A stretch of 64,000 bases of DNA from Eubacteriales bacterium (GCA_045543495.1 JAZQMO010000019.1:17056-81055); one strand, 5' to 3'; numbered from the stretch's first letter, positions 5,782-24,543 are shown. Made by a program: numbers and translations. The notes: a model not told the origin generated them from the sequence alone.

Positions 5782-5798
5782 TCTGCAAAATCAGGATA

Positions 5799-7375: not shown

Positions 7376-7399
7376 TCCTAAGCAAAAAGAAAAAAAGCA

Positions 7400-7432
7400 A
7401 AAAATCCGTTGCTCGGCGACGGATTTTTTTGC
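7400..7432 (+). terminator. Rho-independent terminator after paralog 2
   Basis: ATCCGT(7404-7409)...ACGGAT(7419-7424) stem followed by TTTTTTT. Confidence 0.65.
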
Positions 7433-7589
7433 TTTTTGGCTTATGAACGGAGAAAAATATTTTCCATAACAACTTTTCATTGGAATTTGTGCTTTTTTGA
7501 CTATCTTTTACAGGTAATGTGTGGTATTCTATTTTTACAGAGATCCTTGGATCCAACCGTTTTACCAAAAACAGAATTTGGGAGGAATT

Positions 7590-8984: not shown

Positions 8985-9039
8985 TTCCATTGACTTTGAC
9001 AAAGGGTGACCCCTATGAATCCTAATGACAGGAGATAAT

Positions 9040-10287: not shown

Positions 10288-10308
10288 TCTTTCCCTGCAG
10301 CGCTTTTT

Positions 10309-10337
10309 GGGATGGGCTTTTTGCCCGTCCCTTTTTA
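10309..10337 (+). terminator. Rho-independent terminator after paralog 4
   Basis: GGGATGGGC(10309-10317)/GCCCGTCCC(10323-10331, one G-U pair) followed by TTTTT. Confidence 0.6.
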
Positions 10338-10386
10338 TATGTTCTGTGACTTTTTTTGTGTGATGGGGGATTTTTTTCTTTTTTTC

Positions 10387-10415
10387 TTGCGAAAAGGCCC
10401 GAACTGAATTATAAT
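10387..10415 (+). promoter_or_regulatory. Sigma-A type promoter of array unit 4
   Basis: TTGCGA (10387-10392), 17-nt spacer, TATAAT (10410-10415). Confidence 0.55.
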
Positions 10416-10443
10416 GGGGGTAATCTATAAGCAGGAGGCTATT

Positions 10444-11823: not shown

Positions 11824-11927
11824 CGGAAGCAAAGCCGCCTTTTTCAAAAGGCGGCTTCGTTACAATTTGGACTTGTTTTTTGTGCAAAAGATTGTATTTT
11901 TCTTCTGTTTTTTGTGCTTTTCACACC

Positions 11928-11956
11928 TTGCTTGATCCTTTGTTTTTGTTTATAAT
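11928..11956 (+). promoter_or_regulatory. Sigma-A type promoter of array unit 5
   Basis: TTGCTT (11928-11933), 17-nt spacer, TATAAT (11951-11956). Confidence 0.55.
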
Positions 11957-11990
11957 AGAAATATACAGGAAATCTCAACGGAGGCTTATT

Positions 11991-13367
11991 ATGAAACGAA
12001 TTCTTGCTTTGCTTTTGTGCTTATCTTTGCTGTTTTCCGTCTCCTGTGCCGCCTCTCTCCCGAATCAAACCATAGGGAAAACCGAGGAAACGAAAACCCT
12101 CCCCGCAGTGGAAAGCACCACCGAGGAGGAGAGGGAAACAGGCCCCATCCAATTGCCCCAAGGCTTTTCCGCAGGCTGGGCAAGAGAGGTGGTCAATCCC
12201 GATCAGGGTACCAGCCTGGGCGGCTGGCCCACGGCGGAAAAGAGACTCAGCGGTGCCATTGTGGACGATATTAAATTGACCCTGACCGCCCTTTCCGACG
12301 GGGAAAAGGTGTTTTTCCTCTTTTCTACCGATGCTGTGGCGGTCTCCGAAAACCTCTTTGATCAATTTGCCGCTTTGGCAGAAAAAAATCACGGGGTGCC
12401 AAAGGAGCACGTCATCGTCAACGCCACCCATTGCCATTCGGCGCCCGCTTCCTATATTTCTGCCTTGCCCGGTGTTGCAAAGTATAACAGAAAGCTCTAT
12501 TCCGTGGTGGAAAAGCTGATGGATCAGGCCCTGCGGGATCTTGCTCCCGCCACCGTTTTGGTGGGCAGAAGCAAAACGGAAAATCTCAATTACGTTCGGC
12601 GCTATGTGACCCCCGACGGCAAAACCTATCTGGGCGGCACCGCCATGGCAACCGCCTCCTCCCAATACGCTCGCCACGAGACCGAGGCGGATAACGAAAT
12701 GCAGGTGATCCGCTTTGTGCGGGAGGAGAAAAAGGATATCGTTCTCTGCAACTGGCAGTGCCATCCCACCACAATGAGCTCCGAATTCGGCACCACCGTG
12801 TCTGCGGATTGGGTCGGCCCCTTCCGTGATGCCGTGGAGCAGGATGAGGACATCGTTTTTTCCTACCATCAGGGAGCGGCGGGCAATGTTGTTCCCTCCA
12901 CCCGTATTCAGGAGGAAAAGGGAAATGGGGACTATAACCTCCACGGCAAGGCTCTGGCCGAGGTGGCAAGAGCGGCGCTTCGTGATGCCGTTCCGGTGAA
13001 AACAGGCCCCTTTTCTGCCGTGCGGGAGGGCTTTGTGGCCACCCATTCCGATGCCTACAAGAAAAAATCGGGCACCCGATCCAATACCGATACCTTAAAT
13101 CTCACCGTGCTTTCCATCGGGGATGTGGCCTTTGTCACCAACCCCTGTGAAATGCACGATACCAACGGGCAGGAGGTCAAGGCCGCATCGCCTTATGAAA
13201 TGACCTTCGTCTGCGCCTACTCCAATGGCTCCAAAAGCTACATTCCCTCTTCTCTTGCCTTCCAAAACGGGGGGTATGAGGTCAATTCCTGTCACTTCGT
13301 TGCGGGAACGGGGGAGGCCATAGTGCAAAAGCTTTTGGAAATGCTGAACAATCAACACAACGGATAA
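11991..13367 (+). CDS. Neutral-ceramidase-like amidohydrolase, paralog 6 (lipoprotein form)
   Basis: ORF 11880..13367. ATG 11991 follows a GGAGG SD. MKRILALLLCLSLLFSVSC lipobox. 35-aa linker. NATHCHSAP, LNYVRRY, CNWQCHPTT, HQGAAGN, GGYEV. Confidence 0.8.
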   Translation: MKRILALLLCLSLLFSVSCAASLPNQTIGKTEETKTLPAVESTTEEERETGPIQLPQGFSAGWAREVVNPDQGTSLGGWPTAEKRLSGAIVDDIKLTLTALSDGEKVFFLFSTDAVAVSENLFDQFAALAEKNHGVPKEHVIVNATHCHSAPASYISALPGVAKYNRKLYSVVEKLMDQALRDLAPATVLVGRSKTENLNYVRRYVTPDGKTYLGGTAMATASSQYARHETEADNEMQVIRFVREEKKDIVLCNWQCHPTTMSSEFGTTVSADWVGPFRDAVEQDEDIVFSYHQGAAGNVVPSTRIQEEKGNGDYNLHGKALAEVARAALRDAVPVKTGPFSAVREGFVATHSDAYKKKSGTRSNTDTLNLTVLSIGDVAFVTNPCEMHDTNGQEVKAASPYEMTFVCAYSNGSKSYIPSSLAFQNGGYEVNSCHFVAGTGEAIVQKLLEMLNNQHNG

Positions 13368-13380
13368 AAGGAGAATTTCG

Positions 13381-14760
13381 ATGAGGCGAATCGTAGCTCT
13401 GGTGATGGCAATTTGGCTCCTCCTGTCCCTTGTCTCCTGCGCTTCTTCCCTTGCCGTTTCCGAAACGGCGCAGGATACAACACAAAAAGGGGAGAAAACG
13501 GAAGAAAAAACCGAAGAAACAGAGGCAGAAAAGGGCCCCATCATACTTCCCGAGGGCTTTTCCGTGGGCTTTGCAAGAAAGGTCATCAATCCCGAATCGG
13601 GGACGGGGCTTGGGGGCTTTGCCAACGGCTACAGCCGCCTTTCCACCGTGGTACAGGATGATCTGATGCTCACCTGCACCGCCTTTTCCGATGGGGAACA
13701 GGTCTTTCTGTTTTATTGCTATGATATTTCCTATGTAACGAACACCTTGGTGGATTCGGTCACGGCAAGGCTTGAAGGGCTCTTTGACGGCATCACCATC
13801 CCCCCTGAAAACGTGATGATCAATACCACCCATACTCACGCCGCTCCCGCTCTTTCGGATTCCAATACCCCCGGCATCGGGATCTACTTGAAAAAGCTTT
13901 ATCCCGCCTTCTATCAGGTGGCAGAGGATGCCCTTCGGGATCTTTCCCCCGCCACGGCCGAAATGGGCGTGACCCATACAAAGAACTTAAATTACGTCAG
14001 AAGATACGTGACCCCCGACGGCAAGACCTATCTCGGCAACTGGCCCGATTTTATGGACTCTACCGAGGGGCGCCACGAAACCGAGCCTGACAACACGATG
14101 CAGCTGCTTCGCTTCCGAAGAGAAGCGGGGAAGGATGTGGTACTGTGTAACTGGCAGTGCCACCCCTGCTCCCCCGGCATCGGAACGGCAAACGGCACCA
14201 AGGTCTCCTCTGACTGGATCGGCCCCATGAGAAAGCAGGTGGAAAAGACCGAGGACGTGCACTTTGCCTTTTTCCAAGGGGCCGCAGGCAATCTTGCCTC
14301 CAATACCCGTATTCAAGGGGAACAGGACAATAAGGACTATGTGGCCAAGGGCAGAAAGCTTGCCGAGGCAGTCAGCGGCGGCCTTGGGAATATGAAACAG
14401 GTGGAAACGGGAAGGCTTGCGGCAAAGCGGATCGAATATCCTCTCACCCGCCGTCCCGATAAGGGCGGCACCACGGATACCTTCTATCTTTCCGCCTTTT
14501 CTCTGGGGGAGATCGCCTTTGCCACCGCCCCTTACGAGATGCACGATACCAACGGCGTGCAGGTGAAGGAAGATTCCCCCTTTGAAATGACCTTTCTGTG
14601 CGCTTATACCAGCGGTATGTTCAGCTACATTCCCGCTTCCTTTGCCTTTGAAATGGGCGGGTATGAGGTGGAGAAATGCTATTACGAGAAAGGAACCGGT
14701 GAGATTCTGGCAAACAGGCTCATCACGCTGTTGGAGGAAATAGATGCTTCGCAAAAATAA
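13381..14760 (+). CDS. Neutral-ceramidase-like amidohydrolase, paralog 7 (lipoprotein form)
   Basis: 459 aa. MRRIVALVMAIWLLLSLVSC lipobox. 35-aa linker. NTTHTHAAP, LNYVRRY, CNWQCHPCS, FQGAAGN, GGYEV. Starts 13 nt after paralog 6. Confidence 0.8.
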   Translation: MRRIVALVMAIWLLLSLVSCASSLAVSETAQDTTQKGEKTEEKTEETEAEKGPIILPEGFSVGFARKVINPESGTGLGGFANGYSRLSTVVQDDLMLTCTAFSDGEQVFLFYCYDISYVTNTLVDSVTARLEGLFDGITIPPENVMINTTHTHAAPALSDSNTPGIGIYLKKLYPAFYQVAEDALRDLSPATAEMGVTHTKNLNYVRRYVTPDGKTYLGNWPDFMDSTEGRHETEPDNTMQLLRFRREAGKDVVLCNWQCHPCSPGIGTANGTKVSSDWIGPMRKQVEKTEDVHFAFFQGAAGNLASNTRIQGEQDNKDYVAKGRKLAEAVSGGLGNMKQVETGRLAAKRIEYPLTRRPDKGGTTDTFYLSAFSLGEIAFATAPYEMHDTNGVQVKEDSPFEMTFLCAYTSGMFSYIPASFAFEMGGYEVEKCYYEKGTGEILANRLITLLEEIDASQK

Positions 14761-16135
14761 GATGAAACGAATCGTGTCAATCATTCTTGTTCTTTTGATG
14801 ACTCTGTCCCTTGTCTCCTGCTCCTCTTCTCTCATCGCTCCCGACACGGCGCATAAAAAAACGCAGGAAGAGGAGAAAACGGAAGAAAAAACGGTGGAAA
14901 CAGAGGCAGAAAAGGGCCCCGTGGTGCTCCCCGAGGGCTTTTCCGTGGGCTATGCCAAAAGGGCGGCCAATCCCCAAGCGGGGGTGGGAATGGGAGGCTA
15001 TTCCAGTGTGGATTCCCGCCTTTCCGAGGTGAATTTGGATGATATTATGGTCACCTGCACCGCTCTTTCCGACGGAGAAAATGTGTTTCTTCTCTTTTGC
15101 TCCGATACCCTCTATGTGGGCGAGGATATTGTGGATGCGGCGACAAAGCGGCTGGAAAAACGCTATGAGGGCATTACCATCCCTGCCGAAAACATCTTTT
15201 TCAATGCGACCCACACCCATTCCGCTCCTGCGGTGCATCTTGAGAACGCCCCCGGAATCGGGCGGTATATGAAGGTGTATTATCCCGCTCTGTACGCTGC
15301 GGCCGATGGGGCCATGCACAGCCTTTCTCCCGCCACGGCGGAATACAGCTCGGTGAACACCGAGAATTTGAACTATGTGAGAAGGTACGTCTCTCTTGAC
15401 GGCAAGACCTACATCGGCGGATCGGGCCTTCCCGGAAATCAGGATCCCGCTCTGGTTCGCCACGAGACCCAGCCCGATACCCAAATGCAGCTTTTGCGCT
15501 TCCGTCGTCAGGAGGGAAAGGATGTGGTGCTGTGCAACTGGCAGTGCCATCCCTGCTCCTCCAAGATCGGTGCGGAAAAAAGCATCTATATTTCCGCCGA
15601 TTGGTGCGGACAGATGAGAAAGCACGTGGAACAGAATCTGGGCGTGGAATTTGCCTATCTGCAGGGGGCGGGAGGCAATCTTGTGTCTTCCACCAAGATC
15701 CGCGGGGAAAAGACCAATTCCGATTATTTGCAAAAGGGAAAGGAATTGGCCGAGGTGGTAGAGGGAGCGCTGGAGAACACAAGGCTCCTTCATACGGGTG
15801 CCTTCCGAGCCCATCGGGAGTCCGTTCCTTATCCCCGCAATGCCAAGAACCCCTCGGGAGACGATACCATGTATCTTTCCGTTCTTACCATCGGGGATGT
15901 GGCCATTGCCACCGTTCCCTGTGAATTTCACGATACCCTGGGCGTTCAGGTGAAGAGCGAATCGCCCTTTCCCATCACGCTGATGTGTGCCTACACCAGC
16001 GGCTCCCACGGCTACATTCCCGCTTCCTTTGCCTTTGAAATGGGCGGGTACGAGGTGGAATCCACCCGCTACGAAAGAGGAACGGGAGAGAAGATGGTCG
16101 AGGATCTTTTGACCATGCTGCGAGAGATTCAATAG
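14744..16135 (+). CDS. Neutral-ceramidase-like amidohydrolase, paralog 8 (lipoprotein form)
   Basis: 463 aa. A GGAGGA SD lies 5 nt before ATG 14744, which overlaps the end of paralog 7 by 17 nt. MLRKNKMKRIVSIILVLLMTLSLVSC lipobox. 35-aa linker. NATHTHSAP, LNYVRRY, CNWQCHPCS, LQGAGGN, GGYEV. Confidence 0.8.
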   Translation: MLRKNKMKRIVSIILVLLMTLSLVSCSSSLIAPDTAHKKTQEEEKTEEKTVETEAEKGPVVLPEGFSVGYAKRAANPQAGVGMGGYSSVDSRLSEVNLDDIMVTCTALSDGENVFLLFCSDTLYVGEDIVDAATKRLEKRYEGITIPAENIFFNATHTHSAPAVHLENAPGIGRYMKVYYPALYAAADGAMHSLSPATAEYSSVNTENLNYVRRYVSLDGKTYIGGSGLPGNQDPALVRHETQPDTQMQLLRFRRQEGKDVVLCNWQCHPCSSKIGAEKSIYISADWCGQMRKHVEQNLGVEFAYLQGAGGNLVSSTKIRGEKTNSDYLQKGKELAEVVEGALENTRLLHTGAFRAHRESVPYPRNAKNPSGDDTMYLSVLTIGDVAIATVPCEFHDTLGVQVKSESPFPITLMCAYTSGSHGYIPASFAFEMGGYEVESTRYERGTGEKMVEDLLTMLREIQ

Positions 16136-16141
16136 ATCAAT

Positions 16142-16185
16142 GGGGAAAACTCCTGCTTCGGCAGGGGTTTTCCCCACTTTTTTTC
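16142..16185 (+). terminator. Rho-independent terminator after paralog 8
   Basis: 15-bp stem GGGGAAAACTCCTGC/GCAGGGGTTTTCCCC (one mismatch) with a TTCG loop, followed by CTTTTTTT. Confidence 0.8.
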
Positions 16186-16269
16186 GTTTTTGGAAAGCGA
16201 ACGCACAAGTTCGGCACGGATTTGTGCATTTTTATGCAAAATATTTCGGAATTTTGGTTAATTTTTACC

Positions 16270-16298
16270 TTGATTGCAGGGGGCTTTTCCGATATAGT
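16270..16298 (+). promoter_or_regulatory. Sigma-A type promoter of array unit 6
   Basis: TTGATT (16270-16275), 17-nt spacer, TATAGT (16293-16298). Confidence 0.5.
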
Positions 16299-16345
16299 AA
16301 AGACAAGCAAAAAAACTGTTTTTGACAGGGAAAAAGGAGTATTTT

Positions 16346-17608
16346 ATGATGGAAAAAATGGTAAATCAGGGGATCACTTTCCCCGAGGGCTTTTCCGCAG
16401 GCTTCGGCCGTGCGGTGGTCAATCCTCTGCCCGGTACGGGTATGGCAGGCTGGGGCAATGCGACCCGCCGCCTTTCCGACCAAGTCGTAGATGATCTGAT
16501 GGTCACCTGCACCGCCCTTTGCGATGGAAATGAGGTGGTTCTGATCTATTCTCAGGACAATGGCTTTTCCGACCGCGCCATTTACTGTCGCATTACCGAA
16601 AAGCTGATGGCGGATTACGGGATTCCCGCCTCCCACATCATCGTCAATGCCACCCATACCCACTGCGCCCCCGCTATGTCCGATTCTTCGGTCCCCGGTG
16701 TGGAGGAATATCTGACCCGCTATTACGAGGCCGTGTACCGCATCGCCCACGAGGCCCTTTTGGATCTTGCTCCCGCCGAGATCCTCTCGGGAAAGACCTA
16801 TACCAAAAATCTTTCCTACGTGCGCCGCTACCTCTCGAAGCGTGACGGCTCCTTCATCGGCAACTGGCCGCCCATTCAGTACCCCACCGAGGCTCGCCAC
16901 GAGACCGAGCCGGACGAGATGCTTCAGGTGCTTCGCTTTGTAAGAAAAGAAAAGAAGGATATCGTCCTTTGCAACTGGCAGTGCCATCCCTGCTCCGAGA
17001 GGCTTGCGGGAGAAATGAGAAGCGAGATCTCCTCTGACTGGATCGGTGTGGCAAGAGAAGAGGTGGAAAAGAGAGAGGATGTGCTCTTCTCCTTCCATCA
17101 GGGCGCTTGCGGCAATGTGGTCTCCACCACCCATATTGCAGGAGAAAAGAACAATATCAAATACCGCACCAAGGGAATGGAGCTTTGTATGGCCATTCAG
17201 GAAGCCTTGGGAGACACCGGAAAGGTAAATGCGGGCAAGATTCAGGCCGTTCAGAAGGAATTTTGCGCCAAGCGAAGCCGTGATTGGATGGAGCGCTTTT
17301 CCGCCAAGACCGATCACGAGAATCTGTTTTTGAACATCATCGCCATCGGTGATATTGCCTTTGCCACCGCTCCCTGTGAGTGGTACGACGGCTGCGGTCG
17401 CTTCGTTCGGGAAACCTCCCCCTTCAAAACCACCTTTGTTTGCGGCTATACCAACGGCTCTCACAGCTACATTCCCGCCTCCTTCTGTTGGGAAAACGGT
17501 GGGTATGAGATCAAAAAATGCCACTTTGAAAGAGGCACGGGCGAAAAGATCGCCTTGGAGCATATTGAAGCATTAAATGCGTTATACGCAGAAAGAGAGG
17601 AACTATAA
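16346..17608 (+). CDS. Neutral-ceramidase-like amidohydrolase, paralog 9 (cytoplasmic form)
   Basis: ORF 16322..17608. ATG 16346 follows an AAAGGAG SD. MMEKMVNQGITFPEGFSAGFG. NATHTHCAP, LSYVRRY, CNWQCHPCS, HQGACGN, FCWENGGYE. Confidence 0.8.
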   Translation: MMEKMVNQGITFPEGFSAGFGRAVVNPLPGTGMAGWGNATRRLSDQVVDDLMVTCTALCDGNEVVLIYSQDNGFSDRAIYCRITEKLMADYGIPASHIIVNATHTHCAPAMSDSSVPGVEEYLTRYYEAVYRIAHEALLDLAPAEILSGKTYTKNLSYVRRYLSKRDGSFIGNWPPIQYPTEARHETEPDEMLQVLRFVRKEKKDIVLCNWQCHPCSERLAGEMRSEISSDWIGVAREEVEKREDVLFSFHQGACGNVVSTTHIAGEKNNIKYRTKGMELCMAIQEALGDTGKVNAGKIQAVQKEFCAKRSRDWMERFSAKTDHENLFLNIIAIGDIAFATAPCEWYDGCGRFVRETSPFKTTFVCGYTNGSHSYIPASFCWENGGYEIKKCHFERGTGEKIALEHIEALNALYAEREEL

Positions 17609-18862
17609 ATGGATCAGATGAAAATGAAGCAGCAGGGAATTTCCATTCCCGAGGGCTTCTCCGTTGGCTTCGGCCGCAGAGGGATCAATCCCCCTCCCGG
17701 AACGGGTCTCGGAGGATGGGGCAACTCCGATGTGAGAGTGTCCGATCAGATCAAGGACGATCTGGTGCTCTCCTGTACTGCTATTTGTGATGGTGAGGGC
17801 TTTCTCCTGCTTTATTCTCAGGATACCACGCAGTCCGGCAAGTCTCTGCAGGAGACCTTTGCCGCCGAGATCTTTGAGCTTTACGGGATTCCCGCCGAGC
17901 GTGTGATCATCAACGCCACCCATTCTCACACCGCTCCCGATATTCTGTCCAAAAAAGCCGCCGGGCACGAGGCGTATCAAGCCCTGTACCGCACCGCCTT
18001 TTTTGAGGCTACGGCAGAGGCTCTTTCAGACCTTGCCCCCGCCGAGATTCTGGCAGGCAGAACCTATACCGAAGGGATCTCCTTCGTGCGCCGCTACCTT
18101 TCCAAAAAGGATGGTTCCTTCCTCGGCAACTGGCCGCCCTTTCAGTATCCCGAAGAGGCCTATCACGAGACCCGCCCCGATGAAATGCTTCAGGTCATTC
18201 GCTTTGTGAGAGAGGCGGGGAAGGATGTGGTGCTCTGCAACTGGCAGTGCCACCCCTGCTCCGAGCTTGCAGGCTCCAAAAAGAGCGATGTTTCCTCTGA
18301 CTGGGTAGGCGTTTGCCGCAGTCAGATCGAGGCCAGAGAGGATATTTTCTTCTCCTATCATCAGGGTGCCTGCGGCAATGTGGTTTCCGGCTCCAAGATG
18401 GCCAATGATTCTCCCTTGAGATACAAGGCAAAGGGACATAAGCTTTGCTTTTTCGTTCAGGAAGCCCTCCGTGGGGCAACGCCTGTGAAATCGGGCAAGA
18501 TCCGTGCCGAGAAGCACGATTTTTACGCTCCCCGCAGCCGTGAATGGATGGAGAAATTTGGGGCTGAGAAGGATCACGAGTATCTCAATCTTACCACCGC
18601 CTGCTTCGGAGACGTGGCCATTGCCACCGCTCCTAACGAGCTGCACGACACCTGCGGAAGATTCATCCGTGAGGGCTCTCCCTTTAAGATGACCTTCTTC
18701 TGTGGCTATACCAACGGCTCTCAGAGCTACATTCCCGCCGCCTTCTGCTGGGAAAACGGCGGCTATGAAGTAGGAAAATGCCACTTTGTCCGTGGTACGG
18801 GCGAGAAGCTGACCTATCATCACCTGGATCTCTTGAACGAATTTTACGAAACGAGGGACTGA
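17609..18862 (+). CDS. Neutral-ceramidase-like amidohydrolase, paralog 10 (cytoplasmic form)
   Basis: 417 aa. The ATG directly abuts the paralog 9 stop (TAAATG). NATHSHTAP, ISFVRRY, CNWQCHPCS, HQGACGN, FCWENGGYEV. Confidence 0.8.
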   Translation: MDQMKMKQQGISIPEGFSVGFGRRGINPPPGTGLGGWGNSDVRVSDQIKDDLVLSCTAICDGEGFLLLYSQDTTQSGKSLQETFAAEIFELYGIPAERVIINATHSHTAPDILSKKAAGHEAYQALYRTAFFEATAEALSDLAPAEILAGRTYTEGISFVRRYLSKKDGSFLGNWPPFQYPEEAYHETRPDEMLQVIRFVREAGKDVVLCNWQCHPCSELAGSKKSDVSSDWVGVCRSQIEAREDIFFSYHQGACGNVVSGSKMANDSPLRYKAKGHKLCFFVQEALRGATPVKSGKIRAEKHDFYAPRSREWMEKFGAEKDHEYLNLTTACFGDVAIATAPNELHDTCGRFIREGSPFKMTFFCGYTNGSQSYIPAAFCWENGGYEVGKCHFVRGTGEKLTYHHLDLLNEFYETRD

Positions 18863-18864
18863 AA

Positions 18865-20121
18865 ATGAATTCTCATGCATTCAAATCGGCGGGAGCCGCC
18901 CTTCCTCAAGGCTTTTCGGCGGGCTTCGGTCGCAGAACCGTGAACCCTGAGGCAGGGACCTGTCTGGCGGGCTTCGGAAATCCCAATCGCCTTTCGGAAA
19001 AGGTGGTGGATGATCTGATGATCACCTGCACCGCCCTTTGCGATTCGGAGCAGATCCTGCTGATCTATTCGCTGGATCTTTGCTCCACCCGTGAGAGTAT
19101 GGTGGAGCGCGTCGTCTCCTGTTTGGGAGAAAAATTCGGCATTCCCGCCGAAAATATCATCCTGAACGCCACCCATACCCACTGCGGCCCCGATCTTCAC
19201 GAGGTGGGTCACGCAGGAATCGAAGCCTATCGGGAGCAGTATTTTGCTTCGCTTGAGGAAGCGGGTCGGGAGGCCATCCTGGATCTTACCCCCTGCGAAA
19301 TCAAGGTGGGAAGAACCTATACCGAGGGGATCTCCTTTGTGCGCCGCTACCTGTCCAAGCACGATGGCTCCTTTATCGGCAATTGGCCCAAGCCGCAGAA
19401 AAGCGAGGATGCCTATCACGAGACCCGCCCCGATGAGATGCTTCAGGTCATTCGCTTTGTGCGAGAAGAAAAGAAGGATATCGTTCTTTGCAACTGGCAG
19501 TGCCATCCCTGCTCCGGCAGACTGGCAGGGGAAATGAGAACGGATGTTTCCTCCGACTTTATCGGCCCTATGCGTGAGGCCTTGGAGGCAGAGGAGGAGA
19601 TCCTCTTCTCCTATCAGCAGGGCGCCTGCGGAAACGTGGTATCGGGCACCAAGATCATCACCGAAATGACCCCTCTTAATTATCGGATCAAGGGAATGAT
19701 CCTGTGCGGTGCCGTGAAGGAAGCTTTGAAGGCCGCCTATCCCGTCAAGGCGGGGAAGATCCGTGCCGTGAAGGAAGAGCTTTCCTTGAAGCGGAATGCG
19801 GCCTTTATGGAAAAATGGAAGGTGACAACGGATGCGGAGACCCTGCATCTGTCCACCGTCAGCATCGGAGATGTGGCCTTTGCCACCGCTCCTTGCGAAT
19901 TGCACGACGCCTGCGGAAGATTTATCCGTGAGGGCTCTCCCTTTAAGATGACCTTCTTCTGTGGCTACACCAACGGGGGACACGGCTACATTCCTGCCTC
20001 CTTCTGCTGGGAAAACGGCGGCTATGAGGTGAACAAATGCCATTTCCACCGTGGTGCGGGAGAGAGGATCGTGCGCCATCATCTGGAACAACTTGGTAAG
20101 CTTTACGAGGAGAGAGAATAA
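18865..20121 (+). CDS. Neutral-ceramidase-like amidohydrolase, paralog 11 (cytoplasmic form)
   Basis: ORF 18778..20121. ATG 18865 lies 2 nt after the paralog 10 stop. MNSHAFKSAGAALPQGFSAGFG. NATHTHCGP, ISFVRRY, CNWQCHPCS, QQGACGN, FCWENGGYEV. Confidence 0.8.
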   Translation: MNSHAFKSAGAALPQGFSAGFGRRTVNPEAGTCLAGFGNPNRLSEKVVDDLMITCTALCDSEQILLIYSLDLCSTRESMVERVVSCLGEKFGIPAENIILNATHTHCGPDLHEVGHAGIEAYREQYFASLEEAGREAILDLTPCEIKVGRTYTEGISFVRRYLSKHDGSFIGNWPKPQKSEDAYHETRPDEMLQVIRFVREEKKDIVLCNWQCHPCSGRLAGEMRTDVSSDFIGPMREALEAEEEILFSYQQGACGNVVSGTKIITEMTPLNYRIKGMILCGAVKEALKAAYPVKAGKIRAVKEELSLKRNAAFMEKWKVTTDAETLHLSTVSIGDVAFATAPCELHDACGRFIREGSPFKMTFFCGYTNGGHGYIPASFCWENGGYEVNKCHFHRGAGERIVRHHLEQLGKLYEERE

Positions 20122-21369
20122 ATGGATCGGACCAAGCTTCGGGAATGGAAGATCGCCGTTCCCGAGGGCTTTTCGGCGGGCTGGGCCAGAGAGGTGATCA
20201 ATCCTCTCCCCGGTACCTGCCTCGGCGGGTGGGCCACCGCCTCCAAGCGCTTATGCGAGGAGATTTTAGATGATATTATGGCCACCTGTACCGCCCTTTC
20301 CGACGGAAAAAGCATTTTCCTCTTTTATTCCCACGATGCGCTCTACATCCGTGACACTATGCTGGACGAGCAGACCCGCCGAGTGTGGGAAAAATACGGG
20401 ATCCCCGCAGAAAATGTGGTGATGAATGCCACCCATTCCCATTCTGCTCCCATTCTCCATTATCCTAAAATGAGCGGGATGCCCGAGTATATGGAGCGCT
20501 TCTGGGCGGCGATGGATCGCATTACCGAGGCGGCCATTCGGGATCTTGCGGAGGCCAAGCTTTTCATCGGCACCGCTCACACCAAGAACTTAAACTTTGT
20601 CCGCCGCTATGTTTCCATAGACGGCAAGGAGTATTTGGGAGGCTCCGCTCTCCCCAAGGGGCAGGATCCCACCAAGGTTCGCCACGAGACCGAGCCCGAC
20701 ACCGAAATGCAGGTGTTCCGCTTGGAGCGGGAGGGCAAAAAGAATATCGTTATGGTGAACTGGCAGTGCCATCCCTGCTCCGCAGGGGTGGGAAAAGAGT
20801 GGGGAACAGGCGTTTCCGCCGACTGGGTGGGCCATCTTCGTATGGGGGCAGAGGAGCTTTTGGATGCGCACTTTGTATACCATCAGGGCTGTGCAGGCAA
20901 TCTTGCCAACGCCTCCAAGCTTCAGGGAGTTCAGGCCATTACCGATTATAAGGCCAAGGGCCGTGCTTTGGCAGAGTATGTAAAAGAGGCCTACGACAAC
21001 GCCGCTCCCGCCAAAACGGGCGTCTTTCAGGCAAGCCGTCAGAATTTCATCGCCACCAACAATGAGCGATACCGTGAAAAGGAAAAGGCGGGCGAGACCG
21101 CTTCCCTGTATCTGAATACGCTGTCGATCGGCGATGTGGCCTTCGTCACCGTTCCCTGTGAGTGGCACGATACCTGCGGCCGTATGGTGAAGGATGCCTC
21201 TCCCTTCAAAATGACCTTCGTCTGCGCTTATTCCAACGGTGTGTTCAGCTACATTCCCTCCGCTCTCGCTTATTCCAACGGTGGGTACGAGTCCAAAATG
21301 TGCCACTTTGTCCGTGGCACGGGAGAAAAGATCGCCGAGGCGCTCATTGATTCTCTGAAAAAGATCTGA
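20122..21369 (+). CDS. Neutral-ceramidase-like amidohydrolase, paralog 12 (cytoplasmic form)
   Basis: 415 aa. The ATG abuts the paralog 11 stop. VPEGFSAGWA, NATHSHSAP, LNFVRRY, VNWQCHPCS, HQGCAGN, GGYES. Confidence 0.8.
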   Translation: MDRTKLREWKIAVPEGFSAGWAREVINPLPGTCLGGWATASKRLCEEILDDIMATCTALSDGKSIFLFYSHDALYIRDTMLDEQTRRVWEKYGIPAENVVMNATHSHSAPILHYPKMSGMPEYMERFWAAMDRITEAAIRDLAEAKLFIGTAHTKNLNFVRRYVSIDGKEYLGGSALPKGQDPTKVRHETEPDTEMQVFRLEREGKKNIVMVNWQCHPCSAGVGKEWGTGVSADWVGHLRMGAEELLDAHFVYHQGCAGNLANASKLQGVQAITDYKAKGRALAEYVKEAYDNAAPAKTGVFQASRQNFIATNNERYREKEKAGETASLYLNTLSIGDVAFVTVPCEWHDTCGRMVKDASPFKMTFVCAYSNGVFSYIPSALAYSNGGYESKMCHFVRGTGEKIAEALIDSLKKI

Positions 21370-21580: not shown

Positions 21581-21784
21581 ATGATATATCTCTAACGAGA
21601 TATGATATACGGCTTTGCCGTATGATATATTTTCACTTCGTGAAAACATGATATAATATCCGTTCCTTAATATGCCGCAGGCATATATCATCGCTCGCAG
21701 AACGATATCATACCGAAGGTATATCACCCGTTCCGTAAAGGAACGGATATCATTGAGGCACACTTCCTTACAGAGTGTGCCTCA
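21581..21784. repeat. Heptamer/hairpin array: 4 direct ATGATAT followed by 4 inverted ATATCA(T/C), each spacer a distinct mini-palindrome
   Basis: ATGATAT starts at 21581, 21602, 21622 and 21648. The reverse complement ATATCAT starts at 21685, 21705 and 21747, and ATATCAC at 21721. Spacers are atctc-taac-gagat, acggc-ttt-gccgt, ttttcac-ttc-gtgaaaa, atgcc-gca-ggcat, cgctc-gca-gaacg, acc-gaa-ggt and ccgttcc-gtaaa-ggaacgg. A terminal 10-bp stem TGAGGCACAC/GTGTGCCTCA spans 21754-21784. Confidence 0.85.
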
Positions 21785-21800: not shown

Positions 21801-22544
21801 TTATCGCTCGATGCCAAGATCCTCTAAGCTCAGGGAGATGCCTTCGGTCTCTTCGTCATCAATTTCGGGCCCGTCCTCCGAGAGGGGGGTAGGGGGAATT
21901 TTCTTCTGCGGCTTCTCGCCTGCCGAAAGGCGAAGCCAAAGAGCAAGGGAATAGGAAAGATAATAGAGAAAAACGGAAATGACAAAGAAGCGGTAACGGA
22001 AGGAGGATAGGGTGCCGAGGGGCAGAAGCTGGGTGAAATAAAACTGCGAGAGCTTTTCATCCAGCGCAAAGGATAGGATCAAAAGAGTGCCTTCTATGAG
22101 AGCGTGGCCCAGACAAAGCTGAGCGGCAAGGCGGGAAAACAACGGATTCTTTGCCGAAAGGATCACCATAGCCCCCATCAAAAGAAGAAAAATGAGGGTG
22201 ATCAGCACCGTGCCGTGCACCTTTTTTCCTCCCGCAATGACCAAAATTTCCAGTGCTCCATAAAGGAAAAGGGGAAGGGCAGCGGGAATGGCAAAGGACA
22301 GACCCTGCGGGGAAGAGAAAAGACTTACCGCCAAGGCCAAGATCAGGCAGAAGGGAGCGGCCATCCAGCAAAGATCCGCCAGAAGAGACAGGGTACCCTG
22401 CTCGGTGGAAACGGGGATCTCAAAATAAGCATCCATTCCTCTCCCGTCGGAAAACCAGCCCCAGGCAAAAAAGGTAAAAAACAGCATCATCAGGGCCAAA
22501 AAAAGGGAAAGGCCGCAGCAGAGATAATAGCGAATTTGTTTCAT
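21801..22544 (-). CDS. Hypothetical multi-pass membrane protein with acidic C-terminal tail
   Basis: 247 aa. Several hydrophobic segments (e.g. LCCGLSLFLALMMLFFTFFAWGW, VLITLIFLLLMGAMVIL). C-terminus PEIDDEETEGISLSLEDLG. No recognisable family. Confidence 0.6.
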   Translation of the reverse strand: MKQIRYYLCCGLSLFLALMMLFFTFFAWGWFSDGRGMDAYFEIPVSTEQGTLSLLADLCWMAAPFCLILALAVSLFSSPQGLSFAIPAALPLFLYGALEILVIAGGKKVHGTVLITLIFLLLMGAMVILSAKNPLFSRLAAQLCLGHALIEGTLLILSFALDEKLSQFYFTQLLPLGTLSSFRYRFFVISVFLYYLSYSLALWLRLSAGEKPQKKIPPTPLSEDGPEIDDEETEGISLSLEDLGIER

Positions 22545-22664
22545 AGCGATCTCACTTTGTTTTGATTGCCTCTATTATAGAAAAAAATCCTCCTTCCGTC
22601 AAGACTTGGCATTGCGTGGCAGGCTCGCTGCGTGGTATGGTGTGAAAAAAAAGGAGGTTCAATC

Positions 22665-23057
22665 GTGAAGAAGTTAACAGAAAAAAAGGTAAAACGCTGT
22701 CTGGAGGAGTATTTTTCCTCCCGCCGAGTGGCAAAACGGAATTCGGAGGGGGAGATCCTTGTGGCCAAAACGGGGGAGATCCTCTTTGAGGAGCGTCCCT
22801 GCACCGTGACGGGACTTGCCCTTGCCTTGGGAATGAGCCGTCGGGAGGAGATGGATCAGATCAAGGAGAAAAAAGTAAAAGCGCTCATTGACCGAGCGCT
22901 TTTGAGAATTGAAGAGAGTGCCGAGGAAAAGCTTTTTTCCAAGGACACCGTCAACGGTGCCAAGCTGTTCCTTTCCACCAATTTTCGGCGTTGGCAGGGC
23001 ACGGTGGAGGAGGAAGCCCCCGCCAATTTGGGGGTCTGCACCCTGTGGGCCGAGTGA
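22665..23057 (+). CDS. Phage terminase small subunit-like protein (orphan)
   Basis: ORF 22632..23057. GTG 22665 follows an AGGAGG SD. The HTH-like block PCTVTGLALALGMSRRE and the C-terminal GAKLFLSTNFRRWQG resemble TerS proteins of Firmicute phages. Confidence 0.55.
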   Translation: MKKLTEKKVKRCLEEYFSSRRVAKRNSEGEILVAKTGEILFEERPCTVTGLALALGMSRREEMDQIKEKKVKALIDRALLRIEESAEEKLFSKDTVNGAKLFLSTNFRRWQGTVEEEAPANLGVCTLWAE

Positions 23058-23678
23058 TCACAGATCCAAAATCAAAAAGACCTTGCCCTGGTGAACCTGA
23101 ACCCGAGTCTCCCCTGCGATCTCATTGCTGACTCCCAAGGGAAAATCAATGGTGAGGGGAGCGTGGGACAAATTGTATTTTGCTCCCGAAACGGAAACGA
23201 TGGCCTTTTCCGTGGCGGAAAAGAGGGAAAAATAGCGGCAGGGCGCAAGGGAGATCTCTTCCCCCTGCTCCACAAGATCGATCCTGCATTTTAAATCCCG
23301 AATTTGCCCCTTGGCCCCCTTGGAGGAGAGGGTCAGAAGGGTGGAAAGGTTTGCCACGGTGTGGGAAAAGCGGTTTCCGCCCATGGCTCCGTAGAGAACG
23401 AAGCGGCGGTAGCCCAAATTCAGGCCCTCCCGCACGGCGGCGAGGGTATCGGTATCGTCCTTTACCTTGGGGAGAACAATGGATCTGACTCCTTCGGGAG
23501 AAAAGCCGAGGGAGTCCGAATCGCCAATATAAAGGTCGCAAGGGATGCCCGCCTCCCGTAAGAGGGCATAGCCTCGGTCTGCGGCGATGACAAGATCGCC
23601 CGCTTCTGTTTCAAAGACGGCGGGATCAAAATCCCCCGCTCCTACGATGCGGCAGACACCGCTTTTTCCTTCTGACAT
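23058..23678 (-). CDS. thiN: Thiamine diphosphokinase (thiamine pyrophosphokinase)
   Basis: 206 aa. IGDSDSLG and KVKDDTDTLAAV motifs typical of TPK. Downstream of thiT under a TPP riboswitch. Confidence 0.8.
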   Translation of the reverse strand: MSEGKSGVCRIVGAGDFDPAVFETEAGDLVIAADRGYALLREAGIPCDLYIGDSDSLGFSPEGVRSIVLPKVKDDTDTLAAVREGLNLGYRRFVLYGAMGGNRFSHTVANLSTLLTLSSKGAKGQIRDLKCRIDLVEQGEEISLAPCRYFSLFSATEKAIVSVSGAKYNLSHAPLTIDFPLGVSNEIAGETRVQVHQGKVFLILDL

Positions 23679-23684
23679 ATTACC

Positions 23685-24338
23685 TCAATTCTTTTTCACA
23701 AAGGGAAGTCGGGAAACGGGAATGGCGGCCACAAGGGTGATCACGGTCTCGGGAAGCATATAAAGCCCGTTGTATACCACGGAGTAAACAAGGGAAAGAG
23801 AAAAGCCCGAGAAGGTTTCCATGGCCCATTGGGAGATGGCAAAATCCTTGGCGGCGCTTTCCAAAAAGAACCATTCTGCCCAAGCCCCGTAGAAGATGGC
23901 ACCGGAGAGCACGTGGAACAGGTAGCAAAGGGCACAGCCTAAGATCGAGCCCGAAACCAGCGCCTTTGCAGGGGAGAGGTGGCGAAAGACGCCTCCGAGC
24001 CCCACCGAGGTAAAGGCGAGAATGTAATCCAGAAGCAAAATGGCAAAGGCCACTCCCACCGATCCCATATAGGAATCGGAATCGGGTAAAAACAGGCCCG
24101 AAACGGTCTTGAAGCCAATGGCCATCTGCAAGAGGGAATACACGAAGGCACTGCCAAGACCCCAGCGAACGCCATACAGATAAGAGATCAGAACAAGGGG
24201 CAAAAGGCTTGCGATGGTGACGGTGCCGCCGAAGGGGAGGTTTAAGAAGGGGATCCATTCGGATACCAGCGAAATGGCGCTGCCCAAGGCAATCAGCATT
24301 GCCGAGGTGACCAGCTTTTGTGTTTTGGTGTGATTCAT
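23685..24338 (-). CDS. thiT: Thiamine ECF-transporter S component (ThiT-like)
   Basis: 217 aa, about 6 TM segments. First gene after a TPP riboswitch and immediately upstream of thiN. Confidence 0.7.
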   Translation of the reverse strand: MNHTKTQKLVTSAMLIALGSAISLVSEWIPFLNLPFGGTVTIASLLPLVLISYLYGVRWGLGSAFVYSLLQMAIGFKTVSGLFLPDSDSYMGSVGVAFAILLLDYILAFTSVGLGGVFRHLSPAKALVSGSILGCALCYLFHVLSGAIFYGAWAEWFFLESAAKDFAISQWAMETFSGFSLSLVYSVVYNGLYMLPETVITLVAAIPVSRLPFVKKN

Positions 24339-24349
24339 ACGACACTCCT

Positions 24350-24485
24350 ATAAAAAAATTCGCACAGGACGGAAGTCCCGTGCGAACGTGAATCTGTTCT
24401 CCATAAAAACTCCCTACGCCGGTATTATCCATCTCAGGTGAAAGGGTTTGCATTTCTGCATCTCAGCCGTAGCACCCCTGTTTTT
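24350..24485 (-). promoter_or_regulatory. TPP (THI-box) riboswitch with terminator expression platform
   Basis: Minus strand reads GGGGTGCTACGGCTGAGATGCAGAAATGCAAACCCTTTCACCTGAGATGGATAATACCGGCGTAGGGA (about 24482-24410). This carries the CTGAGA and ACCTGA..GGATAATACC..GCG.AGGGA hallmarks. It is followed by hairpin CGCACGGG/CCTGTGCG (24384-24361) plus AATTTTTTTA. Confidence 0.9.
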
Positions 24486-24506
24486 TCCGCTCTTGTGCGT
24501 AGCCTT

Positions 24507-24535
24507 ATGATAACTTCTTTTTTTGGATTTGTCAA
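24507..24535 (-). promoter_or_regulatory. Sigma-A type promoter of the riboswitch-thiT-thiN unit
   Basis: Minus strand TTGACA (24535-24530), 17-nt spacer, TATCAT (24512-24507). Overlaps the 5' end of the terL ORF on the other strand. Confidence 0.5.
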
Positions 24536-24543
24536 GTAAAAAA

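What the first reader, a model, noticed from the sequence alone, without database searches (positions are those of the whole stretch)
16346..21369. Cytoplasmic sub-clade (paralogs 9-12) is translationally coupled, Cys-enriched and carries long identical DNA tracts
Stop and start codons of paralogs 9/10, 10/11 and 11/12 are separated by 0, 2 and 0 nt, so the four genes form one tight unit. Compared with the lipoprotein copies they gain cysteines at conserved positions: HTHCAP/HTHCGP, QGACGN or QGCAGN, D.CG after the P.E block, FCWENGGYE, and K.CHF. This fits a reducing compartment or an extra metal or redox site. Paralogs 10 and 11 share a 44-nt identical stretch, ATCCGTGAGGGCTCTCCCTTTAAGATGACCTTCTTCTGTGGCTA (18665-18708 and 19924-19967), and a 24-nt stretch ATGCTTCAGGTCATTCGCTTTGTG. 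Paralogs 7 and 8 share GAAACAGAGGCAGAAAAGGGCCCC. Paralogs 3 and 7 share the 22-nt lipobox-coding tract GTCTCCTGCGCTTCTTCCCTTG. These tracts point to recent duplication or ongoing gene conversion inside the array.
Basis: seen in the sequence. Interest (0 to 1): 0.55.

Follow-up and report, generated by a model that had tools for sequence, protein, structure and literature searches.

The report
Four-gene operon of cysteine-rich ceramidase-like enzymes
The last four genes of a 12-gene tandem array form one tightly packed operon of old, cytoplasmic, cysteine-rich relatives of neutral ceramidase; the shared DNA tracts are real but mostly reflect conserved motifs, not recent duplication.

Summary
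The raw observations hold. The stop/start gaps are 0, 2 and 0 nt, and all four identical tracts sit at the stated coordinates. p09-p11 carry 13-17 Cys and p12 carries 10, against 6-9 in p01-p08.

The proteins are catalytic-domain-only relatives of neutral ceramidase. The AF2 model has pLDDT 96 and matches 4WGK/2ZWS at TM 0.77. All Zn/catalytic residues are kept, but the C-terminal Ig-like domain is missing.

p09-p12 belong to a clade without signal peptides that also occurs in other gut Oscillospiraceae/Eubacteriales MAGs. In that clade C216, C350, C381 and C344 (p11 numbering) are 71-96 % conserved, against 1-12 % elsewhere in the family. These Cys flank the metal ligands H214, E345 and Y387. 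The Cys signature is therefore inherited and constrained. Its role is untested because no model coordinates were available.

Recent duplication is refuted. p09/p10/p11 are only 58-60 % identical, and silent-site identity (0.60) equals that of the most distant paralogs. The N-terminal 263 residues of a metagenomic ORF match p09 at 70 %.

The 44-nt run is unusual (p = 3.6e-4, about 0.02 after correction). It lies in a 153-nt, 89.5 %-identical patch. That suggests one short, old conversion patch and nothing stronger.

The parts
16141..16176 (+). Intrinsic terminator ending the upstream lipoprotein unit (p06-p08); it marks the 5' boundary of the p09-p12 unit
   Evidence: 16-bp stem with 9 GC pairs, followed by CTTTTTTT
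16270..16298 (+). Promoter-like site (TTGATT-17-TATAGT) upstream of p09; weak consensus match only
   Evidence: 9 of 12 matches; inferred, not shown
16333..16339 (+). Shine-Dalgarno AAAGGAG, 6 nt upstream of the p09 ATG
   Evidence: sequence read
16346..17608 (+). p09: 420 aa, cytoplasmic, 15 Cys, neutral-ceramidase-like catalytic domain only
17609..18862 (+). p10: 417 aa, 13 Cys; its ATG directly follows the p09 TAA
18865..20121 (+). p11: 418 aa, 17 Cys; it starts 2 nt after the p10 TGA. The longer ORF from 18778 is an upstream extension that overlaps p10. AF2 model pLDDT 96.4
20122..21369 (+). p12: 415 aa, 10 Cys; its ATG directly follows the p11 TAA. Separate old lineage, 73 % identical to its ortholog q7 in locus L001
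21384..21412 (.). Hairpin after p12. The T-run was scored on the minus strand, so this may be a bidirectional terminator shared with the convergent gene
18614..18766 (+). p10 copy of a 153-nt segment that is 89.5 % identical to p11 19873-20025 (gene-wide identity 66 %). It contains the 44-nt exact tract 18665-18708 and is the best candidate for a conversion patch
   Evidence: 36 of 42 silent codon matches, p = 0.012
19873..20025 (+). p11 copy of the same 153-nt segment; contains the 44-nt tract 19924-19967
18155..18208 (+). p10 copy of a 54-nt patch with 2 mismatches to p11 19408-19461; contains the 24-nt tract 18185-18208; encodes EAYHETRPDEMLQVIRFV
19408..19461 (+). p11 copy of the 54-nt patch; contains the 24-nt tract 19438-19461

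Best explanation
p09-p12 are a single four-gene operon at the 3' end of a 12-gene array. They encode four old, cytoplasmic isozymes from a distinct cysteine-rich clade of 'mini' neutral-ceramidase-like metallo-amidohydrolases. These proteins have the catalytic domain only, with no C-terminal Ig-like domain.

Shown:
- The fold matches neutral ceramidase, and the full Zn/catalytic residue set is kept (p11 H104, H106, R160, H214, E345, Y375, Y387).
- There is no signal peptide.
- Stop and start codons abut, and each start has a Shine-Dalgarno inside the upstream gene.
- A clade-wide Cys signature (C213-H-P-C216, C344, C350, C381, C392) sits immediately beside the metal ligands in sequence.

Inferred:
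- The four genes are co-transcribed and translationally coupled, which would give co-ordinated amounts of four enzymes.
- These enzymes hydrolyse amide bonds of imported N-acyl compounds. The six lipoprotein paralogs would act on related substrates at the cell surface.
- The extra thiols are retained by selection because they tune or add to the metal site, which is tolerable in the anaerobic cytoplasm.

The identical DNA tracts are mainly the coding of the most conserved peptide motifs on a background of saturated silent sites. At most one or two short, old conversion patches (about 50-150 nt) between p10 and p11, and between p09 and p11, are superimposed on this.
For: Family and fold.
- Pfam PF04734 gives weak hits to all paralogs.
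- A family profile hits only neutral ceramidases in the PDB, at E = 4.5e-19 and 1.4e-13, and the catalytic motifs align.
- The AF2 model has pLDDT 96.4 and pTM 0.94. Foldseek matches 4WGK/2ZWS at TMq 0.77 and E about 1e-26.
- The residues invariant across 96 family members are H104, H106, R160, H214, E345, Y375 and Y387.

Operon.
- Terminator at 16141-16176, RBS before p09, gaps of 0/2/0 nt with internal SDs, and a hairpin after p12.
- The same layout occurs in L001: four Cys-rich cytoplasmic genes with gaps of 10, 11 and 20 nt at the 3' end of a syntenic array.

Cys.
- Clade versus rest-of-family frequencies are C216 0.96/0.10, C350 0.86/0.01, C381 0.86/0.06 and C344 0.71/0.12.
- The clade has 89 % bootstrap support.
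- Family-wide, cytoplasmic-like members average 11.5 domain Cys and secreted-like members 6.5.

Age.
- Silent-site saturation is shown.
- A p09-like ORF is 70 % identical to p09 over its N-terminal 263 aa.

Tracts.
- The tract peptides are the clade consensus, and other paralogs use different codons there.
- Regional silent-site identity between p10 and p11 is 0.77 in the C-terminal region, against a baseline of 0.56 (binomial p = 7e-4 on a post-hoc region). The scan statistic gives p = 0.012.
Against: - No transcript data were available. Promoter and terminator calls are consensus matches only.
- No activity or metal data exist, and the substrate is unknown. Neighbouring genes differ between genomes.
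- p09-p12 score below Pfam's gathering threshold (19.6-31.9 bits against 32.1).
- Several clade Cys alternate with Ala, Ser, Thr or Gly in exported relatives. This pattern also fits passive tolerance of Cys at small residue positions.
- The conversion signal does not survive correction over all 66 pairs, and the 3SEQ-like tests are not significant.
Confidence: 0.6

Rival explanations
1. Recent tandem duplication, or ongoing gene-wide conversion, keeps p09-p12 (especially p10 and p11) similar. The identical tracts are its footprints.
For: The 44-nt exact run is longer than all but 0.036 % of codon-shuffled nulls. p10 and p11 are sisters with 95 % bootstrap, and p09-p11 are monophyletic within this genome at 90 %. 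Two more paralog pairs have runs with p < 1e-3.
Against: Protein identity is only 58-60 %, and silent-site codon identity of 0.60 equals that of the most distant pairs. p09 is closer to the N-terminal 263 aa of a foreign ORF (70 %) than to its own paralogs. Silent-site identity between p10 and p11 in the N-terminal third is 0.46, below baseline. The overall runs test gives p = 0.05 and the 3SEQ-like tests are not significant. Only 6 of 66 pairs fall below 0.05 in the silent-site scan.
Confidence: 0.05
2. The extra cysteines have no specific function. Exported paralogs avoid Cys, as reported for aerobic Firmicutes, while cytoplasmic copies in an anaerobe freely accept Cys at small residue positions, so Cys accumulates passively.
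For: Family-wide, cytoplasmic-like members have about twice the domain Cys of secreted-like members. Clade Cys columns are mostly Ala, Ser, Thr or Gly in other members. Cysteine exclusion in aerobic Firmicutes is documented (PMC2823432). Many Cys in p09-p11 are private to one paralog.
Against: Four columns are 71-96 % Cys across a clade whose members are only about 45-60 % identical, and 1-12 % Cys elsewhere. That level of conservation points to selection. All four lie within 1-6 residues of metal or catalytic residues. The cytoplasmic paralogs p01 and p04 are not Cys-enriched, with 7-8 Cys. The exported paralogs still keep 4-5 conserved Cys.
Confidence: 0.3
3. The clade-specific cysteines build an additional thiolate-ligated metal, Fe-S or redox-switch site next to the catalytic Zn. 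One candidate is the C213-x-x-C216 pair that brackets the ligand H214. This would give the cytoplasmic enzymes a different cofactor or redox control.
For: The Cys are conserved and sit next to the ligands in sequence. A CxxC motif brackets H214 in every clade member (one search lists C213 and C216 as invariant). Cys content of 3-4 % is comparable to that of the QueG-like Fe-S protein in the same window.
Against: There is no canonical Fe-S motif. Co-occurrence of the Cys columns across the tree is loose: p10 lacks C344, p12 lacks C381, and P0013 and P0006 lack C344 and C350. All canonical Zn ligands are retained, so no ligand swap is needed. 3D clustering is untested.
Confidence: 0.22
4. The four proteins assemble into a hetero-oligomer, and the abutting stop/start codons exist to enforce subunit stoichiometry.
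For: The 0-2 nt junctions with internal SDs are typical of genes for complex subunits. A block of four Cys-rich genes recurs in L001, and at least three are packed together in L059.
Against: The blocks in the two genomes are not 1:1 orthologous apart from p12/q7. Clade members occur as single genes in other genomes. L004 has only one such gene. The tightly packed p06-p08 encode lipoproteins of the same family, so tight spacing may simply reflect tandem duplication of compact genes.
Confidence: 0.1

Closest known systems
Neutral ceramidase (Pseudomonas aeruginosa PaCD, PDB 2ZWS/2ZXC; human ASAH2, PDB 4WGK; Pfam PF04734 plus the C-terminal domain)
   Same: It has the same catalytic-domain fold (Foldseek TMq 0.77). 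The motifs align: H-x-H, R, H, E, Y, Y, corresponding to human H194/H196, R257, H303, E540, Y579 and Y591. The roles of His196, Arg257, Tyr579 and Tyr591 are described in PMC6952831. The Zn-ligand assignment rests on my own knowledge of Inoue 2009 and Airola 2015, which could not be opened here. A Zn-dependent amide hydrolysis mechanism is therefore the likely way it works.
   Different: Identity is only 14-15 %. The proteins are about 415 aa rather than 630-690 aa. They lack the C-terminal Ig-like domain and an insert of about 70-90 residues. p09-p12 are cytoplasmic rather than secreted or membrane-anchored. They fall below Pfam's gathering score and have no NCBIfam hit. They carry a Cys signature around the ligands where the human enzyme has I302, V305, G539, S545, E585 and T596. 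Ceramide as the substrate is unproven.
Short bacterial 'neutral/alkaline non-lysosomal ceramidase N-terminal domain-containing' proteins (uncharacterised)
   Same: p09-p12 belong to this large group of roughly 410-500-aa proteins. There are 17,325 representative clusters at E <= 1e-3 and 1,372 at E <= 1e-30. One relative carries exactly this name in NCBI (P0093).
   Different: Most of the closest relatives found here are exported or lipoproteins with 5-8 Cys. The p09-p12 clade has no signal peptide and 9-17 Cys. It was found only in uncultured gut Oscillospiraceae/Eubacteriales MAGs and metagenomes. No paper on these short proteins turned up in the held library.
Concerted evolution of bacterial paralogs by gene conversion (for example tufA/tufB; my own knowledge)
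   Same: The genes are adjacent and in the same orientation, with local patches of raised identity that include silent sites (153 nt at 89.5 %).
   Different: In the classic cases whole genes stay nearly identical. Here silent sites are saturated gene-wide, and the only candidates are patches of about 50-150 nt with borderline statistics.
Cysteine exclusion in aerobic Firmicutes (Daniels et al. 2010, PMC2823432)
   Same: Exported paralogs have about half the Cys of the cytoplasmic clade.
   Different: The exported copies still keep 4-5 conserved Cys. Two cytoplasmic paralogs (p01 and p04) are not enriched. The enriched positions are fixed and lie next to the ligands rather than being scattered.

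Membership tests
Neutral ceramidase (PF04734 N-terminal domain plus C-terminal domain) | Catalytic-domain fold | tested here: met
   AF2 model pLDDT 96.4. Foldseek matches 4WGK/2ZWS at E about 1e-26 and TMq 0.77; nothing else scores below E = 7e-4.
Neutral ceramidase (PF04734 N-terminal domain plus C-terminal domain) | Zn ligands (His, His, Glu, Tyr) and catalytic His, Arg and Tyr conserved | tested here: met
   H104, H106, R160, H214, E345, Y375 and Y387 are invariant in 96 family members. They align to the corresponding residues of 4WGK and 2ZWS and are present in all 12 paralogs.
Neutral ceramidase (PF04734 N-terminal domain plus C-terminal domain) | Score at or above the curated family threshold (Pfam GA 32.1 bits; NCBIfam NF041649 1200 bits) | tested here: not met
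   p09 26.4, p10 19.6, p11 31.9 and p12 31.3 bits; only p01 passes, at 47.3. p09-p12 have no NCBIfam hit.
Neutral ceramidase (PF04734 N-terminal domain plus C-terminal domain) | C-terminal Ig-like domain | tested here: not met
   The proteins end about 30 residues after the GGYE motif and are 415-420 aa, against chains of 646-688 residues. Foldseek TMt is only 0.49-0.52.
Neutral ceramidase (PF04734 N-terminal domain plus C-terminal domain) | Extracytoplasmic location (secreted or membrane-anchored) | tested here: not met
   p09-p12 have hydrophilic N-termini and start 14-15 residues before the first domain motif. Maximum 12-residue hydropathy is 0.6-0.9, against 3.0-3.5 in the lipoprotein paralogs.
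Neutral ceramidase (PF04734 N-terminal domain plus C-terminal domain) | Hydrolysis of ceramide | not testable with these tools
   This needs an enzyme assay.
Translationally coupled operon | Stop and start codons overlapping or within a few nt, with the SD inside the upstream ORF | tested here: met
   TAA|ATG, TGAaaATG and TAA|ATG, with GAGG-type SDs 7-9 nt upstream.
Translationally coupled operon | One transcript, with downstream translation dependent on upstream translation | not testable with these tools
   Only flanking terminator and hairpin predictions are available, plus the absence of strong internal sites.
Gene conversion / concerted evolution among paralogs | Identical runs longer than protein conservation and codon usage predict | tested here: inconclusive
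   p10/p11 44 nt gives p = 3.6e-4, about 0.02 after Bonferroni over 66 pairs. The 22-nt tract gives p = 0.034.
Gene conversion / concerted evolution among paralogs | Segmental excess of silent-site identity (mosaic) | tested here: inconclusive
   Scan statistic: p09/p11 43 of 52, p = 0.008; p10/p11 36 of 42, p = 0.012. No pair reaches p < 0.001, and 6 of 66 fall below 0.05. The 3SEQ-like tests are not significant.
Gene conversion / concerted evolution among paralogs | Paralogs within a genome more alike than orthologs between genomes | tested here: not met
   p09 is 70 % identical to the N-terminal 263 aa of the L059 ORF, against 58-59 % to p10 and p11. Orthologs p12/q7 are 73 % identical, p02/q1 68 % and p01/q8 61 %, against 58-60 % within the trio.
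Accessory Cys-ligated metal / redox site | Cys conserved across the clade | tested here: met
   C213 1.00, C216 0.96, C392 0.89, C350 0.86, C381 0.86 and C344 0.71 in 28 clade members.
Accessory Cys-ligated metal / redox site | Thiolates clustered in space, or a canonical binding motif | not testable with these tools
   The tools did not return model coordinates. By inspection there is no CX2CX2CX3C-type motif; only a CxxC around H214 is seen.

The most novel reading that the evidence does not exclude
The Cys-rich cytoplasmic clade represented by p09-p12 is a new cofactor variant of the neutral-ceramidase fold. Four to six conserved thiols around the His/His/Glu/Tyr site (C213-H-P-C216, C344, C350, C381, C392) would create a second metal or redox centre, or a thiol-gated one. 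The array would then encode paired extracellular (lipoprotein) and intracellular (thiol-dependent) amidases for a still unknown class of host- or diet-derived N-acyl compounds in gut Oscillospiraceae/Eubacteriales.
Probability: 0.2. Interest if true: 0.55.

Novelty: new variant of a known kind. Interest (0 to 1): 0.35.

Why it matters
Taken one by one, the flagged features (tight operon, more Cys, shared tracts) are ordinary.

What is worth keeping is the family itself. It is an uncharacterised, catalytic-domain-only branch of the neutral-ceramidase superfamily. It is present as 12 tandem paralogs here and as many scattered copies in uncultured gut Oscillospiraceae/Eubacteriales. It splits into surface-lipoprotein copies and cytoplasmic copies, and the cytoplasmic clade has a conserved Cys constellation beside the metal ligands.

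If these enzymes act on sphingolipid-like or other N-acyl compounds, they would be a previously unrecognised route for amide-lipid or amino-sugar turnover by gut anaerobes. The Cys signature gives concrete residues to mutate.

The analysis also shows that exact 20-44-nt repeats between 60 %-identical paralogs do not, on their own, prove recent duplication.

Tried and rejected
1. Mapping the Cys onto the structure. The AF2 model is excellent, but no coordinates are exposed, so no distances could be measured.

2. An early idea that the QGAC Cys replaces the 'GDVSPN' serine of ceramidases. The profile alignment puts it opposite an Ala of PaCD (NAGNLSPN), so the idea was dropped.

3. Reading the primary structure papers (Airola 2015, Inoue 2009). 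They are not held. A review was used instead.

4. Finding close relatives for ortholog-based conversion tests or copy-number comparison.
- The genome-contig scan found nothing above 49 % identity.
- The metagenome-contig scan found one relative, at 39 % identity.
- p09-p11 are singleton 90 % clusters, and the window's own contig is not in the gene-position index.

5. Trio site-labelling first looked like a strong mosaic, with runs at p = 5e-5. At codon level, and after comparison with other species, most of this was one paralog diverging from the clade consensus.

6. L059 looked like a natural N/C-terminal recombinant. However, the switch coincides with an in-frame stop at a conserved motif, so an assembly chimera cannot be excluded.

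7. Site-specific codon constraint as the cause of the 44-nt run was rejected. Other paralogs and species use other codons there, at the usual rate of about 0.6 codon identity.

8. The first bootstrap script timed out. It was redone with a faster distance calculation.

9. Pfam, NCBIfam and literature searches gave no functional annotation for the short family.

Full report
**Layout.**
The + strand carries 12 tandem paralogs:

| Gene | Coordinates |
|---|---|
| p01 | 4531-5781 |
| p02 | 6005-7375 |
| p03 | 7590-8984 |
| p04 | 9025-10287 |
| p05 | 10444-11823 |
| p06 | 11991-13367 |
| p07 | 13381-14760 |
| p08 | 14762-16135 |
| p09 | 16346-17608 |
| p10 | 17609-18862 |
| p11 | 18865-20121 |
| p12 | 20122-21369 |

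Six of them (p02, p03, p05-p08) begin with a hydrophobic signal sequence ending in a Cys, a classical lipobox (L-x-S-C) in five of them. The other six (p01, p04, p09-p12) have hydrophilic N-termini.

**Checking the observation.**
- The junctions are as described: TAA|ATG, TGA-aa-ATG and TAA|ATG. A GAGG-type Shine-Dalgarno lies inside the last codons of each upstream gene.
- A strong terminator (16141-16176, 16-bp stem plus T-run) separates p08 from p09. AAAGGAG precedes the p09 ATG, and a hairpin follows p12. One four-gene transcription unit is therefore the natural reading, but it is inferred.
- Tight packing is not special to this block. p06/p07 are 13 nt apart and p07/p08 are 1 nt apart. 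Terminators split the array into units: p02 | p03-p04 | probably p05 | p06-p08 | p09-p12.
- Cys counts are 15, 13, 17 and 10 for p09-p12, against 6-9 for p01-p08. p09-p11 are 3.1-4.1 % Cys, against a median of 1.75 % in the window's other ORFs.

**What the proteins are.**
- Pfam gives weak PF04734 (Ceramidase_alk) hits. Only p01 passes the gathering threshold, and NCBIfam gives nothing for p09-p12.
- A 96-sequence family profile hits only human and Pseudomonas neutral ceramidases in the PDB, at E = 4.5e-19 and 1.4e-13. The alignment runs through all catalytic motifs.
- The AF2 model of p11 is very confident (pLDDT 96.4, pTM 0.94). Foldseek finds only 4WGK, 2ZWS and 2ZXC, at E about 1e-26, TMq 0.77 and 14-15 % identity.
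- The family-invariant residues are H104, H106, R160, H214, E345, Y375 and Y387 (p11 numbering). They align to human H194, H196, R257, H303, E540, Y579 and Y591. The roles of H196, R257, Y579 and Y591 are given in PMC6952831. The Zn-ligand set is from my own knowledge.
- All 12 paralogs keep these residues.
- The proteins lack the C-terminal Ig-like domain and an insert of about 70-90 residues.
- The wider short family is large: 17,325 representative clusters at E <= 1e-3. No paper on it was found in the held library.

**The clade.**
- In an NJ tree of 119 homologs, and in a bootstrapped tree of 36, p09-p12 fall in a clade without signal peptides and with 9-17 Cys. The whole clade has 89 % bootstrap support.
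- Its members come from uncultured Oscillospiraceae, Eubacteriales and Clostridia MAGs and metagenomes; the labelled genome records are from sheep, cattle and rabbit guts.
- p12 is a separate old lineage. It is 43-44 % identical to p09-p11 but 73 % identical to its ortholog q7 in L001, with 100 % bootstrap.
- L001 (GCA_052837085.1) has a syntenic array between hrcA and the thiamine/terminase/queG genes: three lipoprotein genes, then four Cys-rich cytoplasmic genes with gaps of 10, 11 and 20 nt, then a p01 ortholog.
- L004 has at least six exported-length paralogs (451-475 aa) followed by one p12-like cytoplasmic gene.
- The Cys-rich block at the 3' end is thus conserved, but its membership is not 1:1 between genomes.

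**Cysteines.**
- Frequencies in 28 clade members against 221 other family members are as follows:

| Cys (p11 numbering) | Clade | Rest of family |
|---|---|---|
| C216 | 0.96 | 0.10 |
| C350 | 0.86 | 0.01 |
| C381 | 0.86 | 0.06 |
| C344 | 0.71 | 0.12 |
| C255 | 0.57 | 0.08 |
| C213 | 1.00 | 0.44 |
| C392 | 0.89 | 0.45 |

- C107, the 'HTHC' Cys, is present in only 25 % of the clade.
- The clade markers lie 1-6 residues from H214, E345 and Y387. C213-H214-P215-C216 is a CxxC motif around a metal ligand.
- Their conservation across members that are only about 45-60 % identical argues for selection.
- In exported relatives the same columns are mostly Ala, Ser, Thr, Gly or Asn. This pattern also fits tolerance of Cys at small residue positions in a reducing compartment. 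Cysteine exclusion in aerobic Firmicutes is documented in PMC2823432.
- I could not measure 3D clustering because no coordinates were available. The 'extra metal/redox site' idea stays open, at about 0.2.

**Age of the duplicates.**
- p09/p10/p11 are 58-60 % identical in protein and 64-66 % in DNA.
- Codon identity at identical residues is 0.50-0.63 for nearly all 66 pairs. It is 0.60 for p10/p11 and 0.61 for p01/p11, against 0.44 expected from pooled codon usage. Silent sites therefore carry no residual signal of relatedness.
- A metagenomic contig (L059) carries an ORF whose N-terminal 263 aa are 70 % identical to p09 but 60 % to p10 and p11.
- Window-to-L001 orthologs are 61-73 % identical.
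- Recent duplication is excluded.

**Identical tracts.**
- Codons were shuffled among identical-residue columns of the same amino acid. The 44-nt run then has p = 3.6e-4. The 22-nt lipobox tract has p = 0.034.
- The tract peptides (GRFIREGSPFKMTFFCGY, HETRPDEMLQVIRFV) are the clade consensus in other species. p09 is simply the diverged copy there, and the same holds for the p09 = p11 run near DDLMVTCTALCD, where p10 is the diverged copy. Amino-acid-level 'mosaic' runs are therefore not evidence of conversion.
- What remains is a silent-site effect.
  - Other paralogs and species use different codons in the tract.
  - Silent-site identity between p10 and p11 is 0.77 in codons 315-395, against a baseline of 0.56 and against 0.46 in the N-terminal third.
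  - The 153-nt segment 18614-18766 / 19873-20025 is 89.5 % identical.
- A silent-site scan statistic gives p = 0.012 for that segment and p = 0.008 for a p09/p11 segment (16490-16831 / 19009-19350). Over all 66 pairs only 6 fall below 0.05 and none below 0.001. The 3SEQ-like tests are not significant.
- My reading is that one or two short, old conversion patches are plausible but not established. There is no ongoing homogenisation.
- No close relative exists in the searched collections to settle the question or to look at copy-number variation.

**Function.**
- Gene neighbourhoods of clade members elsewhere vary.
  - A divergently oriented DHDPS-family gene recurs in L054 and L056 (Pfam-annotated), and a 297-aa ORF sits in the same position in L007.
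  - One single-copy member sits near GH123, AP_endonuc_2 and Amidohydro_2 genes.
  - Another sits next to a melibiase-family gene.
- This hints at host or dietary glycoconjugate catabolism but does not define a substrate.
- The most likely working model is a set of metal-dependent amidases. The lipoprotein copies would act outside the cell, and the p09-p12 operon would act on imported products.

**Verdict.**
Of the interpretation, the tight unit and the cytoplasmic, conserved Cys signature are supported; recent duplication is wrong; gene conversion is unproven. The locus is a new variant within the neutral-ceramidase superfamily and is of moderate interest.

Noticed in passing
window 4531-21369; L001 4321-15075; L004 1073-11284: The whole 12-gene array sits at a conserved locus. 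hrcA/CarD/flavoprotein lie upstream in the window and L001, and the TPK/ThiT-like/terminase/queG genes lie downstream in all three loci. Copy number and order vary: 12 genes here, 8 in L001 and at least 7 in L004. The p01 ortholog is first in the window's array but last in L001's.
   Followed up: partly
window 22632-25914: A small-terminase-like gene (GP3_package, 22632-23057) and a large-terminase gene (24523-25914) are separated by thiamin pyrophosphokinase and a ThiT-like gene, and are followed by a QueG-like gene. The same order recurs in L001 and L004. This looks like a conserved orphan terS/terL pair rather than a prophage.
   Followed up: no
window 21680-21755 (-): Rfam Gut-1 RNA (RF01706, 59.3 bits, gathering score 50). 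It lies between the end of p12 and the 3' end of the 247-aa ORF 21801-22544 (-). Its function is unknown.
   Followed up: no
window 24394-24489 (-): TPP riboswitch (RF00059, 60.5 bits) upstream of the ThiT-like/TPK genes at 23058-24453 (-).
   Followed up: no
They are as unusual as the 44-nt run. p07/p08 also show raised silent-site identity in the 5' signal/linker part (0.67-0.86).
   Followed up: yes
window 4552-5772(-), 7608-9338(-), 14777-16177(-), 16265-17563(-), 18844-20091(-): Gene-length antisense ORFs lie over several paralogs. The one checked (over p09) is codon-aligned with the sense gene, and all are explained by the near absence of TTA, CTA and TCA codons (0-4 per gene). They are shadow ORFs, not genes.
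   Followed up: yes
L059 1-1683: A metagenomic contig carries three tightly packed Cys-rich paralogs. The middle gene is p09-like (70 %) over its first 263 aa and P0004-like (65 %) afterwards. An in-frame stop sits exactly at the switch, so it is a pseudogene, a recombinant or an assembly chimera.
   Followed up: partly
L054 6991-9269; L056 325-2605; L007 8971-11251: Single-copy members of the Cys-rich clade are paired divergently with a DHDPS/NanA-family gene in L054 and L056, and with a 297-aa ORF in the same position in L007 (not Pfam-scanned). In L054 that gene heads an operon with an FAD oxidoreductase, an MBL-fold protein, ABM, Fe-ADH and GDPD, and L007 has ORFs of matching size and order. 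This may be a functional lead.
   Followed up: partly
window 16203-16227 (+): A second hairpin with a T-run lies between the p08 terminator and the p09 promoter-like site. Its role is unknown; it could be a tandem terminator or a leader element.
   Followed up: no
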